DNA of 64,000 nt from Thermoplasmatota archaeon (GTDB taxonomy: Archaea; Thermoplasmatota; Penumbrarchaeia; Penumbrarchaeales; Penumbrarchaeaceae), in the NCBI GenBank assembly GCA_029762535.1, contig JARVGK010000010.1, positions 19,892-83,891 of the forward strand, written 5' to 3'. Below, piece after piece: positions 37,199 through 49,177 of the stretch. The first letter of the stretch is position 1. Each line of letters opens with the position of its first letter. The translations under genes and the position numbers were made by a program. The notes beneath the pieces were generated by a model. That model was not told where the DNA came from and did not search any database. It worked only from the letters and a program-made list of their open reading frames with translations.

Positions 37199-38122
37199 AT
37201 GACACAGGAATTCGATCTCGCGATAATCGGGGGAGGACCGGCCGGTATGACCGCCGCCATATATGCGGGCAGGTCGGGGTTGAGGGCGGCGGTCCTGGAA
37301 AAGGCGATGGCCGGGGGCCAGATTGCGCTTTCGTATCTTATCGAGAACTGGCCAGGGGACGCCGAGATCTCCGGAGCGGACCTTAGCGCCAGGATGAGGG
37401 GCCATGCGGAGCGATACGCCTCCATCATCGAGTTCTCGGAGATCACCTCGATAGAAAAGGAGGATGTGTTCGTGATAGATACTCCCGAGGGGAAGCTGAG
37501 GGCGAGGGCGGTCCTTATCGCCACCGGGGCGGAGCACAGGAAGCTTGGGGTTCCGGGCGAGGAGGGGCTTGGCGGAAGGGGGGTAAGCTACTGTGCCACC
37601 TGCGACGGGTTCTTCTTCAAAGGGAAGAGGGTGCTCGTTGTCGGAGGCGGCAACACCGCCGTCGAATACGCCATATATCTGCACAACATCGGATGCGACG
37701 TGTCCCTGGTCCACCGCAGGGGCGAGCTCAGGGCCGAGATGAAGATGCAGGAGGAGCTCGGAAAGAGGGATATCCAGGTCATATGGAACAGCGTTGTCCT
37801 CGAGTTCAGAGGCGATGGAACTCTGAAGGAGGTCCTGCTCAGGGACAAGTTATCTGGCGTGGAGAGGACCGTTGAGGCGGACGGGGTGTTCGTAGCCGTA
37901 GGTGAGGTCCCCAACAACGAGATCCCGAAGAGGCTGGGTCTCGACCTCGACCCTGATGGATACGTGATCGTGGACAGGATGATGAGGACATCGATCCCGG
38001 GGATATACGCTGCAGGCGATGTTACCGGGGGATTGAAGCAGGTCGTGGTCGCCGCCGGGGAGGGGGCCATAGCCGCAACGACGGCCTTCGAGGACCTCAG
38101 GGAGCCTTACTGGATAGGATGA
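37199..38122 (+). CDS. trxB: Thioredoxin-disulfide reductase
   Basis: IIGGGPAG, GVSYCATCDG, GGGNTA, AAGDV. GGTGA RBS. Confidence 0.96.
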   Translation: MTQEFDLAIIGGGPAGMTAAIYAGRSGLRAAVLEKAMAGGQIALSYLIENWPGDAEISGADLSARMRGHAERYASIIEFSEITSIEKEDVFVIDTPEGKLRARAVLIATGAEHRKLGVPGEEGLGGRGVSYCATCDGFFFKGKRVLVVGGGNTAVEYAIYLHNIGCDVSLVHRRGELRAEMKMQEELGKRDIQVIWNSVVLEFRGDGTLKEVLLRDKLSGVERTVEADGVFVAVGEVPNNEIPKRLGLDLDPDGYVIVDRMMRTSIPGIYAAGDVTGGLKQVVVAAGEGAIAATTAFEDLREPYWIG

Positions 38123-38455
38123 TCATTCCTCGTCCTCTTTGCCGCCGTCCATGAGGCGCTCGCCGAAGGCGATGGTCTCCAGCGTCCTTGCGACCCAAAG
38201 CCTGTTGGAATGCCGGTCCACATCCTCCCTCATGCGTATCTCGGACTCGATCTGCATCCGCACCAGATGGTATCTGTACTTCTCGATCTCGGTATCCTCG
38301 ACGATCTCCTCGACCATCATCGGAAGCGAATGCGGATCGTCCATGACCCGCGCTATCTTCTGAAGCAGGGGAGGGATCTTGGATGGTACCTCGCCTGCGC
38401 ACAGGACCCGCAGGGTCCCGTCCTCGTTGGACCTCTTTCTTGACTGGGCATCCAT
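38123..38455 (-). CDS. Hypothetical helical protein
   Basis: 110 aa with a GGTGAT RBS 5 nt upstream of the ATG. Confidence 0.65.
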   Translation of the reverse strand: MDAQSRKRSNEDGTLRVLCAGEVPSKIPPLLQKIARVMDDPHSLPMMVEEIVEDTEIEKYRYHLVRMQIESEIRMREDVDRHSNRLWVARTLETIAFGERLMDGGKEDEE

Positions 38456-38539
38456 GTCATATCACCCGGGAACCATGTAATGAAAAGGTCGTATAACATA
38501 CTTGGCATGGACCCATTTGCCGGCTTGTAAAACATCGCC

Positions 38540-39420
38540 TCGGCCCTCCCGGAAAAGGCCGAAAAATCAATAGGAATAAATATGCGAACCCCCGCATTTC
38601 CGATGGAGACGCCGTCCTCCCAAGTGCCCTTCGCGCTCGGATAGGACCCTGGACTTGGACCAACCCTTCCTCATACTGGCTGCGGTGTATGATGCGGCGA
38701 TCCCCCTGATATGGAACATGGTTTCCATTTCCATTGGAACATCCGAAGAACCGTTATATAGCACCGGTTCCTCTACCATCTTTGCCTGGGACGGGTGAAC
38801 TCCAACGGTCCACGTTGTCCGGATCGGAGCGACCCAACCCAACGCTATCAGGCACCCATCCGACCGGATCCCTTGGGGTCCAAACCGATGGGATGCGAAG
38901 CATACCAAAGACCTGGGCTTCTGTCCTTGTCCAAGGTGATGCGAGGAAGTGCAGGGCCCCTTCGAAGCGCCCGCAAAATGATGCCTTCGGGCAACCTGAT
39001 GCGAAGCCCTTCGATACCTTCCCTCCGGGGAAGGAGGCGCTGCCGCAGAGGCATGATCCCTCCGGGATCATTTCCCCCCCTGGGAAATGGTCACCACCGG
39101 AGATCCTCCCCGCAAGGGACGGATCACGGGATCCAAAGCGACCCAAAAGGAAGGAAACCTCGGTTTCCCGGACCTGGATCGAAAAGAAATGCAGGAAAGG
39201 TCGGCCCCGCCGATCCTCCTCTCTCCAACGATCCATCTTCGCGGGCCTTAAAAACCCGAACCCTATGGAAAGCTCGGATCCCTACGGGTGAAATACCTCA
39301 TCCCGCATTCGCTTTCGCTTCCAGACCCCGTCTGGAACGCCTGGGGCTGTTCACACGGCCCGGAGCGTAGGGAGACCAGGCCGTTGGGGGAGGCGTCCTC
39401 GGACCCTCCCCCAACGTCAT
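38540..39420 (-). ncRNA. Candidate large structured non-coding RNA, class unknown
   Basis: More than a dozen stems, a long-range helix 38586-38604/39178-39202 and a possible pseudoknot. Most non-Watson-Crick pairs read as G-U on the minus strand. No credible ORF. Confidence 0.55.
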
Positions 39421-39474
39421 TTTTGGACGTTTTTCCTTGAACATCTATTAATATATAATCATGATACATGCCCG

Positions 39475-40644
39475 GTGATCTCGACGTTCTCCAAGAGGAT
39501 CCGGGAGCTCGCTCCCTCCGGTACCGTGATGCTTGCGAACAGGATTAAGAAGCTCAAATCCAAGGGAGTGGACATAATCTCCTTTAACCTGGGCGAGCCG
39601 GATTTCGACACGCCACCCAAAGTGGTGGAGGCCGCGAAGCATGCTCTGGACCGCGGCGATACACATTACACGCCCTCCCTCGGGACAAACGAGCTGAGGT
39701 CCGCGGTGGCGGACCATGTATGGAACAAGAACGGGATCCCGGCAAAAGTTGACAATGTCATGATAATGCCGGCCAAGTTCGCCCTTTACGCGGCACTGCA
39801 GGCGCTTGTGGACGTCGGTGACGAGGTCATATACCCCGACCCTGGTTGGGTATCGTACGGCCCCATGGTGCAGCTGGCGGGAGGCGTCTGCCGTCCGGTC
39901 AGAATGATAAACGACGGATATTGGCACTGGAGGCCAAAGGACATCGAGGACGCCATAAACGACCGGACCAGGGCCATCATCATCAACACGCCCTCGAACC
40001 CAACGGGCAGTGTGATGTCCTTGAAGGACCTGGAGCAGATAGCGGCCATCGCCAAGGACCACGACCTCTACGTCATATCCGATGAGATATACGAGGACCT
40101 GATCTACGATGGCAAGCACTGCTCCATCGCATCTCTGTTCGGTATGGCCGATCGGACCCTCACCGTATCGGGTCTTTCGAAAAGCTATGCCATGACGGGT
40201 TGGAGGTTGGGGTGGCTCATCGCCGACAGGGAGATCATAAAGATGGTGAACAAACTGCAGCAGCATTCCCTCACTTGCCTTCCCGGATTCATCCAGCAGG
40301 CGGCGGTGACCGCCCTTTCGGAGAGCGAGAGCGTGGAGGCCATGCGAAAGGAGTTCATGGAGAGGAGGGACATGCTCGTGCCGCTCATCAACTCGATACC
40401 CGGCCTCTCATGCGAGACCCCCCAGGGCGCCTTCTACGCCTTCTTCAAGGCGGACCTCGGATACGATTCCATGACGCTCTCCGAGATGCTGATAGACAGG
40501 GCCAACGTCGCCCTTACGCCCGGATCCGCCTTCGGAGAGGGAGGGGAGGGTTACCTGCGCATGTCCTATGCCGCCAGCCGCGAGGACATAGCGGAGGGAA
40601 TGAGGCGTATCAAGGAGGTCGCTGAAGGTATAATGTCCGCTTGA
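39475..40644 (+). CDS. PLP-dependent class I/II aminotransferase (aspartate aminotransferase-like)
   Basis: GEPDFDTP, NTPSNPTG, SDEIY, SKSYAMTGWRLG, PGSAFG, LRMSYA. Confidence 0.93.
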   Translation: MISTFSKRIRELAPSGTVMLANRIKKLKSKGVDIISFNLGEPDFDTPPKVVEAAKHALDRGDTHYTPSLGTNELRSAVADHVWNKNGIPAKVDNVMIMPAKFALYAALQALVDVGDEVIYPDPGWVSYGPMVQLAGGVCRPVRMINDGYWHWRPKDIEDAINDRTRAIIINTPSNPTGSVMSLKDLEQIAAIAKDHDLYVISDEIYEDLIYDGKHCSIASLFGMADRTLTVSGLSKSYAMTGWRLGWLIADREIIKMVNKLQQHSLTCLPGFIQQAAVTALSESESVEAMRKEFMERRDMLVPLINSIPGLSCETPQGAFYAFFKADLGYDSMTLSEMLIDRANVALTPGSAFGEGGEGYLRMSYAASREDIAEGMRRIKEVAEGIMSA

Positions 40645-44468: not shown

Positions 44469-46418
44469 TCACGGCATATGGGGATCCTGCATCGCGAACG
44501 ATTCGGCCGGGCACGGTCCGAGGCACGATCCGCAATGACGGCATTTCGCTCTATCGAGCCTGACGCGCCCATCACCGTCAATGGACAGCGCCCCGTGCGG
44601 ACATCTTCCCACGCACACCCCGCACCCGACGCATCCCTGCGCCCTCATCGCAATGGAGACGACGTTCCTGGACATCCTCCTGAGCTCTGGCTCGTCCCTG
44701 CCCCTGACGATCAGCGCCCCGTCCCTGAAGGCCTCGAGGGCGCTTTTTCTCCATTCCCATCCATCGGGAAAGACATCGACGCCGGACCCGTCATTGATCT
44801 TGATCGTTTCCCCCAGAACGTTTAGGAGCTCCTCGAAGGCCTCCCAAGGGACGTTAGTGGAGATGGTGCCCTCCCTGGAGGATCCGGAGTCGCATGTGTT
44901 GTGCCCGTCCACCAGCGAAACGGAGGCACTCCCGATGCGCCCTCGGCCGAACTCGATCCCCAGGGCCTGTTCGAGGTCTATCATGTACTGCGGAAGCCGC
45001 TTGAAACGGTGGAAACCGTATTTGGACCATTCGACGGGGTATCCGCTTTGGACCCTGTGCTCCTCAAGGAAGGAACTCCAATCCGAGATATCCAGCTCCG
45101 TCCCCTCCATCAGGTCCCTCTCGTGGAGGTCGGTGGATGGGCAGAGGTAGCATCCTATCCTCGCGAACCCTTTGCCGTAGAGCGGATTGTACGGAACGCT
45201 GCTTCTGAAAATGTAGAGCCAAACGTCAAGGGCGGTCCAATCCTGGATCGGGGACGCGCCCACCTGACCCGGCACCCACGGGTTCTTCCAGACCGCGCCC
45301 TTCCTCTCCCGTATGTCTGACTCGTACCTCCTCTGGCCGATGAATGTCAGCACGCCTTCGGGGAACATACCGCTTATGAGACGGGTCATCGGCCCCAGTT
45401 TGCATGTCTTGCAGCACCATCTGAAATCCCTGCCGGGCGGCCCGAACCTGCGCGCGTCCTCGAAGAAGGACGATGTCGGACGGGCCGTATGCAGTTCGAG
45501 GTCCATCTCCCGGGCGAGATCGGTCACGTAGGCCAGCGTCTCCGGGAACTCGATCCCGGTATCAACGAAGAGCACCGGGGGTCGGATCCCCGCGGCATGG
45601 ACCAAAAGGAGCGTGGCGAGGGAGTCCTTGCCCCCCGAGAAGGAGACCGCCGTCGGCAGCCCATGACCCTCGTCCACTTCCTTTATGAAATCCACAGCGG
45701 ATGCCTCCAGTGACGATATCGTATCCTCGTTCATTGTGACGGTCCTTTCCCAGGCCTCGGTCCATGAGGCCTGAGGGACATCGGGTGCGCTGTCCTCCAG
45801 AGAGCACCATCTTACCTTGACCCCCATCCCTTTGGTCCCCACCATCTCCTGAGTGCTCTTCCTGGACAGGCCCGCACCTACTATTCCGTCCTCCTCCGTC
45901 GTGACGATGATCTCGTCCCCGGGCCGTATGCCATCGCTTGCGCTTAAGATCCCCGGGGATAGGAGGCTCGCTCCTTCCAGCAGGAAGGGGAGCGCGCTCC
46001 TGTCGGATACGACGAAACCTCTGCTCGGGAGAAAACCGGCCCTCCTGAGACGGGATCCTCCTTCTTTCTTGAGAATGAGCACGTCCTTGAGGTCCTCCAG
46101 CCGGAACGCGGCGGAGGCAACGGGCCTGCCCCCTACGATGATCTCGTCCATTCTATCAGGGGACGGCGCCGGATTGACGAGATGCGGGCCCCCGGAGGGG
46201 ACCAAGGCCTCTCCTGCGCCTTCCCCCCACTGGGCATCGGCCATTCTACGGACCCCCTCCACATCGTGCGGGAAGGCGGGGCGCATGTCCCCCGGAGGTG
46301 TATGCTCTATCCTCCTTGCTCCGGACCCGCATTCGGGGCATATGGATATCCTGATGAGAGGTACGGAGCAGGTATCGCACCAGAATATGTTCACCCGGCC
46401 GTGCCTCACTATCGCCAT
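44469..46418 (-). CDS. PAPS-reductase-family protein with N-terminal Zn finger, PUA domain and C-terminal 2x[4Fe-4S] domain
   Basis: WCDTCSVP..CPECG; PUA-like LLSPGI...IRPGDEI; SFSGGKDS, RWCCKTCK, RIGCYLCP; CVGCGVCVGRCP and CRHCGSCLGPCP. Confidence 0.88.
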   Translation of the reverse strand: MAIVRHGRVNIFWCDTCSVPLIRISICPECGSGARRIEHTPPGDMRPAFPHDVEGVRRMADAQWGEGAGEALVPSGGPHLVNPAPSPDRMDEIIVGGRPVASAAFRLEDLKDVLILKKEGGSRLRRAGFLPSRGFVVSDRSALPFLLEGASLLSPGILSASDGIRPGDEIIVTTEEDGIVGAGLSRKSTQEMVGTKGMGVKVRWCSLEDSAPDVPQASWTEAWERTVTMNEDTISSLEASAVDFIKEVDEGHGLPTAVSFSGGKDSLATLLLVHAAGIRPPVLFVDTGIEFPETLAYVTDLAREMDLELHTARPTSSFFEDARRFGPPGRDFRWCCKTCKLGPMTRLISGMFPEGVLTFIGQRRYESDIRERKGAVWKNPWVPGQVGASPIQDWTALDVWLYIFRSSVPYNPLYGKGFARIGCYLCPSTDLHERDLMEGTELDISDWSSFLEEHRVQSGYPVEWSKYGFHRFKRLPQYMIDLEQALGIEFGRGRIGSASVSLVDGHNTCDSGSSREGTISTNVPWEAFEELLNVLGETIKINDGSGVDVFPDGWEWRKSALEAFRDGALIVRGRDEPELRRMSRNVVSIAMRAQGCVGCGVCVGRCPHGALSIDGDGRVRLDRAKCRHCGSCLGPCPAESFAMQDPHMP

Positions 46419-47932: not shown

Positions 47933-49177
47933 ATGGAATTCAAGGAATTGGGATTGAATGACAGGCTCGTTGCTACAGTCAAGGGCCTCGGATACACATC
48001 CCCAACGCAGATCCAGGAACAGGCGATACCCATCGTGCTTCAGGGCAAGGACGTCCTGGGACAGGCACAGACGGGGACAGGGAAGACGGCGGCCTTCGCG
48101 CTGCCCATACTTGATAGGCTTATGGAAGGTCCGCGCGGCAGGGTCCGCGCGCTGATCATCGCCCCCACCAGGGAGCTTTCGGAACAGATAGACTCAGCGA
48201 TAAGGGAACTATCCTCTGGGACCGGTCTGAGGTCAACGACGGTCTACGGCGGGGTAAGCATGGAAGGACAGGTCGCCCGACTCAGGGCAAGACCCGACAT
48301 CGTCGTGGCCTGTCCGGGAAGGCTCTTGGACCACATGAACAGGGGCACCATAGACCTGAGAGGGATAGAGGTCCTTGTCCTCGACGAGGCGGACAGGATG
48401 CTCGACATGGGTTTCCTCCAGGATATTCGCAGGATAATGAGATCGCTGCCGGTAAAGAGGCAGACCATGCTCTTCTCGGCCACGATACCAGGGGACATCA
48501 AGAGGCTGTCCTTCGAGTTCATGAAGGACCCCGTCAGCGTGGAGATAGGGCACAGCGCTCCTGTCGAGTCGGTATCCCATGCCATATATCCGGTCCCTCA
48601 TCACCTTAAAACGAGCCTTCTGATGTCCATACTGAAGGGATGCGGATCGGGATCCGTTATCATATTCACCAGGACAAAGCACAGGGCCAAAAGGCTGGCA
48701 TATCAGCTCCAGAAGGATGGATACCCCGCCGCTTCGCTGCAGGGGAACCTATCTCAGAACAAGCGGCAGGAGGCTCTCGACGGTTTCAGGAGAGGCTCGT
48801 ACCGGATCCTTGTCGCGACCGACATCGCAGCGAGGGGAATAGACATCTCGACCATATCGCATGTGATCAACTACGACATGCCTGATACCGGGGACGCCTA
48901 CACCCACAGGATCGGCAGGACGGGAAGGGTCGATAGGACCGGGATCGCCTACACCCTCGTCACCTTCGAGGACGAATCCATGGTGAGGACCATCGAGGGA
49001 TTGATAGGGTCGAACCTGGAGAGGAGGACCATCGATGGGTTCGATTACGGTGGGTTCCAGCTTCCTGCGGGACGGCCCTCACAGCCTCGCTCCGGGCCCG
49101 GCAGGAGAGGACCCGCCCCTGCAAGGAGCGGTATGTTCAGGGAGACAAGGACCCTGTACAGGTCCCTTCACGCTTGA
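47933..49177 (+). CDS. DEAD-box RNA helicase
   Basis: AQTGTGKT, PTREL, DEAD, SAT, ARGID, HRIGRTGR. Confidence 0.96.
   Translation: MEFKELGLNDRLVATVKGLGYTSPTQIQEQAIPIVLQGKDVLGQAQTGTGKTAAFALPILDRLMEGPRGRVRALIIAPTRELSEQIDSAIRELSSGTGLRSTTVYGGVSMEGQVARLRARPDIVVACPGRLLDHMNRGTIDLRGIEVLVLDEADRMLDMGFLQDIRRIMRSLPVKRQTMLFSATIPGDIKRLSFEFMKDPVSVEIGHSAPVESVSHAIYPVPHHLKTSLLMSILKGCGSGSVIIFTRTKHRAKRLAYQLQKDGYPAASLQGNLSQNKRQEALDGFRRGSYRILVATDIAARGIDISTISHVINYDMPDTGDAYTHRIGRTGRVDRTGIAYTLVTFEDESMVRTIEGLIGSNLERRTIDGFDYGGFQLPAGRPSQPRSGPGRRGPAPARSGMFRETRTLYRSLHA

What the first reader, a model, noticed from the sequence alone, without database searches (positions are those of the whole stretch)
38540..39420. About 0.9 kb ornate structured region: candidate novel large ncRNA
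Seen: about 1 kb without a credible gene in an otherwise tightly packed window, nearly tiled by stems. Examples (+ coordinates): 38541-38561, 38671-38692, 38712-38733, 38745-38773, 38852-38896, 39017-39034, 39053-39071, 39069-39089, 39153-39168, 39256-39277, 39319-39337, 39357-39382 and a perfect 12-bp stem at 39382-39416. A multiloop-closing helix pairs 38605-38614 with 38695-38705, and a long-range helix 38586-38604/39178-39202 closes a domain of about 620 nt. In at least six stems the imperfect pairs are G-U on the minus strand and A-C on plus, which argues for selection on RNA structure on minus. Against this, a few UNCG/GNRA-like loops and one G-U favour plus. TATA-like elements lie at 39448-39458 (probably also used by the divergent aminotransferase) and 39247-39254. 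I could not find RNase P, SRP, rRNA or intron signatures. Inference: an undescribed large archaeal RNA in the size range of bacterial OLE/ROOL/GOLLD RNAs, or two adjacent RNAs.
Basis: partly seen in the sequence, partly recalled or inferred. Interest (0 to 1): 0.87.

Follow-up and report, generated by a model that had tools for sequence, protein, structure and literature searches.

The report
Large comb-shaped RNA gene in archaea
One family of little-studied sediment archaea carries, in nearly every genome checked, a gene for a 630-1,500-letter RNA that makes no protein, folds into a small conserved core plus a comb of evenly sized hairpins, and matches no catalogued RNA family; its job is not yet known.

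Summary
It lies on the PLUS strand at 38784 to about 39422 (folding z -9.8). The stretch 38540-38760 folds no better than shuffles and is its promoter.

A covariance model finds one copy in 22 of 23 other genomes of the family (Thermoplasmatota, probably Ca. Penumbrarchaeia) and no credible match in about 135 other genomes of the phylum. Homologs are 633-1,529 nt. They share a TATA box 30 nt upstream, covarying helices joining the two ends, a near-invariant 5' hairpin loop, a 3' hairpin with U tract, and an array of hairpins with a genus-specific period (38-77 nt), capped by C(YYCG)G loops or, in one genus, GNRA loops.

There is no Rfam match, and RNase P, SRP, 5S and 23S lie elsewhere. No ORF is conserved. 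The promoter has two TATA boxes and two boxes resembling Orc1/Cdc6 sites at fixed spacing; the canonical origin is elsewhere.

Best reading: a new class of stand-alone large scaffold RNA, function inferred only. Transcription was not tested. This scan had not noted it on other DNA.

The parts
38784..39422 (+). Large non-coding RNA gene (predicted transcript about 635 nt; 633-1,529 nt in homologs)
   Evidence: z -9.8; CM hit in 22/23 family genomes; lengths; ends inferred from TATA spacing and U tract, not mapped
38576..38583 (+). Upstream TATA-like box (-208 here, -215 to -218 in relatives); possible second start giving a 5'-extended transcript
   Evidence: present in 23 of 24 loci at fixed offset; use inferred
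38588..38609 (-). Distal ORB-like box (palindromic core TTTCCANTGGA; G-string present in this genome); overlaps the predicted start of the upstream promoter
   Evidence: offset -187 here, -194 to -197 in relatives; same core as the ORBs of the family's canonical origin and as the Methanomassiliicoccales consensus (PMC4153887)
38610..38724 (.). Spacer between the boxes: 58-79% AT in relatives, 40% AT here; no conserved RNA structure
38728..38739 (.). Proximal ORB-like palindrome at -56, just upstream of the BRE/TATA
   Evidence: offset -55 to -57 in all 24 loci
38754..38761 (+). TATA box of the RNA gene, 30 nt before the first G
   Evidence: offset -29 to -32, mostly -30, in 24 of 24 loci
38784..38789 (+). 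P1 5' strand; pairs with 39376-39381 and closes the whole core
   Evidence: pair probability 1.0; two positions change in concert across genera
38793..38835 (+). P2 arm: covarying lower stem, 3-nt bulge, 5-bp upper stem (38807-38811/38821-38825) and the best-conserved loop (38812-38820)
   Evidence: 90.5% of cells paired, 6 pairs with two-sided change, 0/500 shuffles as high; most conserved stretch
38838..38846 (+). P3 5' strand; pairs with about 39364-39372, making a three-way junction P1-P2-P3
   Evidence: cognate against non-cognate duplex -15.2 vs -9.4 kcal/mol; permutation p 4e-4 with one genome per genus
38855..39361 (+). Variable domain: branched helices and tetraloop-capped arms (loops at 38986, 39024, 39061, 39112, 39159; period about 38 nt here)
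   Evidence: in homologs 7 or more arms with period about 48, 60-69 or 71-79 nt by genus
39382..39416 (+). 3' terminal hairpin, conserved in sequence, directly next to P1
39417..39424 (+). Conserved tail and U tract: predicted terminator
   Evidence: termination inferred
39448..39455 (+). TATA box of the downstream class I/II aminotransferase (39475-40644); not part of the RNA
   Evidence: conserved spacing to the start codon in relatives; Pfam PF00155

Best explanation
A stand-alone, single-copy, vertically inherited large non-coding RNA that works as a stable structural scaffold. SHOWN from sequence comparison: plus-strand promoter geometry, end-to-end closure by P1 and P3, a conserved P2 loop, a conserved 3' hairpin, and an exchangeable array of equal-length imperfect hairpins with stable tetraloop caps. 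INFERRED: TBP/TFB start transcription at about G38784 and it ends in the U tract at about 39422. P1 next to the 3' hairpin shields both ends from exonucleases. The P2 loop is the one sequence-specific docking site for a protein or RNP partner. The arms form a repeated, sequence-independent duplex platform whose number and length can change, coated by a general duplex binder (Alba is a candidate only because it is present) or packing on itself. A palindrome-binding factor, most likely Orc1/Cdc6, sets expression by blocking the upstream promoter (box at -195) and acting next to the core promoter (box at -56).
For: One copy in 22/23 family genomes, the missing one 62% complete; 14/14 at 80% completeness or more; conserved synteny. 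120 of 274 consensus pairs have two-sided changes; P3 permutation p 4e-4. Arm caps switch between C(YYCG)G and GNRA on the same strand, so the loops serve stability rather than recognition. Length varies 2.4-fold while the core stays. Unpaired positions are 39% A against 23% overall. The promoter layout is fixed in 24 loci. It is independent of the downstream gene, which has its own TATA, and an unrelated ORF is inserted between them in G013. Guide, precursor and known-RNA readings failed their tests.
Against: No partner protein was identified: Alba is class-wide, and the neighbouring 110-aa protein does not co-occur with the RNA. 'Scaffold' rests on architecture and on exclusion of other readings. 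Outer arm segments have more A-C than G-U oppositions, which is unusual for tightly selected helices. Orc1/Cdc6 binding is inferred from motif likeness only, and most boxes lack the G-string. Covariation counts come from related genomes and overstate independence.
Confidence: 0.5

Rival explanations
1. The upstream boxes are a second replication origin (two outward-facing ORBs around an AT-rich unwinding element), and the RNA or its transcription serves origin firing or recruits Orc1/Cdc6.
For: Two ORB-like boxes 138-141 nt apart with a 58-79% AT spacer in relatives; same core as the canonical origin boxes; two cdc6 genes, and in this genome neither lies next to the canonical origin; ORB pairs 39-256 nt apart are reported at origins of related archaea (PMC4153887).
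Against: A canonical inverted G-string ORB pair with an AT-rich centre lies elsewhere (G000:C102:21672-22031) and recurs in relatives. The spacer here is only 40% AT. Each box sits at a fixed distance from a TATA box, as regulators do. Residual GC skew shows no turn at the locus on a 430-kb contig (a weak test).
Confidence: 0.15
2. The transcript is a precursor cut into 40-77-nt hairpin or guide RNAs (CRISPR-, TIGR-, pre-miRNA- or H/ACA-like array).
For: The regular period of 60-77 nt in most genera resembles such arrays.
Against: Arms are self-complementary and orthologous between genera, not acquired spacers. No Argonaute in 0/23 relatives or this genome, and no RNase III in 0/14 or this genome. 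No C/D or ACA enrichment, no K-turns, no rRNA-matching pockets. No significant match elsewhere in the genome.
Confidence: 0.08
3. A domesticated or decaying mobile-element relic, or a folding DNA element, that is not a functional RNA.
For: Restricted to one family; both strands fold well in whole-length z-scores; arms evolve fast.
Against: Single copy, syntenic in 22/23 genomes, no credible hit in viral contigs; RNA-type tetraloops and core G-U pairs on one strand only; fixed promoter and U tract.
Confidence: 0.1
4. A cis-acting leader (riboswitch or attenuator) for the aminotransferase.
For: It lies directly upstream of the gene on the same strand in almost all genomes.
Against: The aminotransferase has its own TATA at conserved spacing; foreign DNA or an unrelated ORF separates the two in genus g3; no alternative anti-terminator pairing was seen.
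Confidence: 0.04
5. A far-diverged, expanded paralog of 5S rRNA (three-way junction closed by the two ends), acting as a mimic for uL18/uL5 or the ribosome.
For: Same gross topology: closing helix, one arm with a conserved loop, and a second arm.
Against: Two genuine 5S genes exist elsewhere, and RF00001 at E up to 1 did not report this locus; no internal loop B; shared stretches with rRNAs are 12 nt or less.
Confidence: 0.05

Closest known systems
GOLLD and ROOL RNAs (bioRxiv 10.1101/2024.12.08.627333)
   Same: Large (659 to over 800 nt), highly structured, function unknown, no partner protein identified for ROOL.
   Different: Those are bacterial, phage or prophage encoded, often near tRNA islands, and held together by kissing loops and A-minor contacts. 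This one is archaeal, chromosomal and single copy, with exchangeable tetraloop-capped arms; no Rfam match to either.
OLE RNA (PMC9723947, PMC12265935, abstracts)
   Same: About 600 nt, stand-alone, in anaerobes, thought to be an RNP scaffold.
   Different: OLE is conserved in sequence along its length and has a K-turn for OapC. Here only about 60 nt plus the 3' hairpin are well conserved, length varies 2.4-fold, and no K-turn was found.
Flexible-scaffold RNAs and expansion segments (yeast telomerase RNA, rRNA expansion segments; from own knowledge)
   Same: Small conserved core with long, fast-evolving helical arms of variable length.
   Different: No template region or reverse transcriptase link was seen (RT not searched), and it is not part of an rRNA: full-length 23S lies elsewhere. 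The arms here are periodic.
Archaeal origin recognition boxes, ORB (PMC4153887 Table 2)
   Same: The two upstream boxes share the TTCCANTGGAAA-type core, come as a pair, and flank AT-rich DNA in relatives.
   Different: G-string mostly absent; no adjacent cdc6; each box is fixed relative to a TATA box; the canonical origin is elsewhere.

Membership tests
Any Rfam 15 family | CM match at or near the gathering score | tested here: not met
   no hit in the region at E up to 10; six homolog loci give only chance hits far below gathering
Archaeal RNase P RNA | RF00373 match, and being the genome's copy | tested here: not met
   the true copy is at G000:C91, 182 bits
Archaeal SRP RNA | RF01857 match, and being the genome's copy | tested here: not met
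   the true copy is at G000:C14, 132 bits
5S / 23S rRNA | RF00001 or RF02540 match | tested here: not met
   5S on C82 and C7, full 23S on C7
tRNA / tmRNA | ARAGORN call | tested here: not met
   0 genes in the window
OLE/ROOL/GOLLD | sequence or CM homology | tested here: not met
OLE/ROOL/GOLLD | large stand-alone RNA with covarying secondary structure | tested here: met
   (works-like feature only)
OLE/ROOL/GOLLD | RNA-only multimers through kissing loops or pseudoknots | not testable with these tools
   needs cryo-EM or mass photometry; interchangeable UNCG/GNRA caps argue against loop-loop pairing
Archaeal H/ACA or C/D guide RNA | K-turn/K-loop, ACA or C/D boxes, pockets matching rRNA | tested here: not met
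   0 K-turn-like loops, ACA at or below shuffled counts, best pocket match 7 bp
CRISPR/TIGR/miRNA-like precursor array | conserved repeats with variable spacers or targets, and a processing or effector protein | tested here: not met
   arms orthologous and self-paired; no Piwi or RNase III in the family; Cas6 and Nop-domain proteins were not searched
Y RNA / Ro60 RNP | TROVE protein in the genome | tested here: not met
   0/37 genomes of the class
BHB-circularised archaeal RNA | bulge-helix-bulge at a conserved place across the termini | tested here: not met
   loose matches at inconsistent offsets, none family-wide
Archaeal replication origin (upstream boxes) | paired ORB cores | tested here: met
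Archaeal replication origin (upstream boxes) | G-string and AT-rich unwinding element | tested here: inconclusive
   G-string on one box in this genome, mostly absent in relatives; spacer AT-rich in relatives but 40% AT here
Archaeal replication origin (upstream boxes) | skew inflection or mapped initiation | tested here: inconclusive
Protein-coding gene | conserved open frame | tested here: not met
   stops in all six frames of every homolog core; tblastn gives only short hits in changing frames

The most novel reading that the evidence does not exclude
A first-of-its-kind archaeal giant RNA under direct control of the replication initiator Orc1/Cdc6: a family-universal multi-arm scaffold whose synthesis is tied to replication or growth state, or which serves an adjacent second origin, with arm length acting as a lineage-specific ruler.
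Probability: 0.18. Interest if true: 0.93.

Novelty: new variant of a known kind. Interest (0 to 1): 0.8.

Why it matters
Large structured RNAs of unknown function (OLE, ROOL, GOLLD) are known from bacteria and phages. To my knowledge, and in the literature searches run here, no such class above 600 nt is described for archaea. This one is single copy and near-universal in its family, so it looks like a housekeeping RNA that arose or diverged recently. Its design is unusual: a tiny conserved core and a periodic comb whose arm length, arm number and loop type (UNCG or GNRA) are reset genus by genus. That makes it a natural experiment in RNA architecture and an easy target for in vitro transcription, SHAPE and cryo-EM. 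The ORB-like boxes give a direct, testable link to Orc1/Cdc6.

Tried and rejected
There is therefore no transcript evidence.
- Minus-strand RNA: rejected. My first strand-neutral mismatch counts were ambiguous or favoured minus; the core helices, tetraloops and promoter settled it.
- Second RNA in 38540-38760: rejected.
- Distant homologs: none by CM in 13 other genomes of the class or in the phylum sample, apart from one 22-bit partial hit; none at the syntenic positions of the sister family. Bacterial and viral motif hits score 25 bits or less. The CM covers only the 5' 71 nt, so diverged homologs can be missed.
- Complementarity of the conserved loop to rRNA, SRP or RNase P: nothing beyond chance. 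A 10-nt identity with 23S sits in a different fold.
- Partner proteins: Piwi, TROVE and RNase III absent; Alba class-wide; the neighbouring 110-aa protein is missing from two genera that have the RNA.
- Skew analysis for an origin: uninformative to weakly negative.
- Box-plus-TATA regulon elsewhere in the genome: only loose matches.
- No structure or complex prediction was run, as no protein partner was in question.

Full report
Setting. The region lies between trxB (37199-38122), a 110-aa protein of no Pfam family (38123-38455, minus) and a class I/II aminotransferase (39475-40644, plus). Relatives with the same element are Thermoplasmatota MAGs, one labelled EX4484-6, the class described as Ca. 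Penumbrarchaeia (PMC12220078, where the terms ncRNA and non-coding do not occur). The placement of this genome in that class is inferred from those record titles.

Checking the observation. The 0.9-kb stretch folds better than shuffles on both strands and has no Rfam hit. The signal is not even. 38520-38760 is at chance on both strands, while 38784-39422 gives z -9.8 on plus and -4.8 on minus.

Conservation. BLAST of the region hit 19 of 23 family genomes, mostly through a 28-nt stretch at 38801-38828. A covariance model of the 5' 71 nt found one locus in 22 of 23 (the two hits in G017 are overlapping contig ends) and 14 of 14 genomes at least 80% complete, with no credible hit elsewhere in the phylum sample. 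Gene order is kept. In the sister family the trxB-small gene pair is intact but the RNA is not next to it. No reading frame is conserved.

Strand and ends. A TATA box starts 30 nt before a conserved first G in 24 loci. A conserved hairpin and a U tract close the other end. Hairpins capped by C(YYCG)G occur 152 times on plus and 8 times on minus, about 27 times the genome background. In genus g2 the caps are GNRA loops, also on plus. The two core hairpins hold 79 G-U pairs on plus and 37 on minus.

Structure. P1 joins the first six bases to 39376-39381 and covaries at two positions across about 600-1,500 nt. P2 carries the conserved loop; 6 of its 16 pairs show two-sided changes and no shuffle reached the observed pairing (relatedness inflates this control). 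P3 completes a three-way junction: with one genome per genus, cognate strands pair better than swapped ones (p 4e-4). In ten closer homologs 120 of 274 consensus pairs have compensatory changes. Beyond P3 lies a branched domain ending in a run of imperfect hairpins with a period of about 38 nt here, 48 in g5, 60-69 in g3, g4, g6 and g7, and 71-79 in g2 (13 GNRA arms). Helices are short (longest 11-16 bp) and internal loops mostly symmetric. Total length runs from 633 (this genome, the shortest seen) to 1,529 nt.

Promoter region. The boxes match the ORB core of related archaea (PMC4153887) and of this family's own origin, an inverted G-string pair around AT-rich DNA at G000:C102:21672-22031 that recurs in relatives. 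Neither cdc6 gene is adjacent to either site in this genome. The spacer is AT-rich in relatives but not here, and skew gives no sign of an origin. I therefore read the boxes as regulatory sites, probably for Orc1/Cdc6: one over the upstream start, one beside the core promoter. A second origin remains the main rival.

What it is not. RNase P, SRP, 5S and 23S are elsewhere, and there is no tRNA or tmRNA. It lacks H/ACA and C/D features and a conserved BHB, and the family has no Argonaute, Ro60 or RNase III. It is not a leader of the aminotransferase, which has its own promoter and is separated from it by inserted DNA in g3.

How it most likely works. Shown: promoter geometry, end closure, a small conserved core, exchangeable arms. 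Inferred: transcription, end protection, one specific docking site at the P2 loop, and a repeated duplex platform. I put about 0.9 on a real plus-strand structured RNA, 0.5 on the stand-alone scaffold mechanism, 0.15 on an origin-linked role, and less on the rest. No expression data could be obtained.

Verdict. A new class of large archaeal non-coding RNA. It works like the bacterial large ornate RNAs in being big, stand-alone and covarying, but it is a member of none, and its periodic comb is different in design. Interest 0.8.

Noticed in passing
G000:C102:21672-22031 (L124): Probable main replication origin: inverted ORB pair with G-strings around very AT-rich DNA, near radA- and gltX-like genes (named by eye) and not next to either cdc6; similar sites in several relatives (L119-L126).
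   Followed up: partly
window 39484-39486: The aminotransferase has ACG where relatives have the ATG start, at the same distance from the TATA and after a Shine-Dalgarno-like motif; either a non-canonical start or use of the GTG at 39475.
   Followed up: partly
window 38123-38455 (minus): 110-aa protein with no Pfam hit, tail to tail with trxB; found across the class and sparsely in the phylum, not found in genera g4 and g5.
   Followed up: partly
between 38455 and 38570; compare L003-L015: An about 210-aa gene (fumarylacetoacetate-hydrolase-like by eye) lies just upstream of the promoter in most relatives but is missing here and in G006 (L016).
   Followed up: no
L092 (G013), just 3' of the RNA: An unrelated ORF with a Fic/Doc-like motif (by eye, untested) is inserted after the terminator. 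Other g3 genomes (L157-L159) carry 300-nt insertions with 35-45-nt direct repeats there, suggesting an integration hotspot.
   Followed up: no
L019/L088 (G010): This homolog lacks the 3' terminal hairpin, while two close relatives have it: a true deletion or an assembly collapse.
   Followed up: no
G000:C82:461-582 and C7:32719-32839: Two clearly different 5S rRNA genes in one genome (92.5 and 86.1 bits).
   Followed up: no
class-wide search: RNase III is found in 5 of 12 genomes of other families of the class but in none of the 15 genomes of the RNA-bearing family.
   Followed up: no
window 44469-46418 and 47933-49177: A PUA-PAPS reductase-4Fe-4S gene and a DEAD-box helicase lie 5-9 kb downstream; no link to the RNA was tested.
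   Followed up: no
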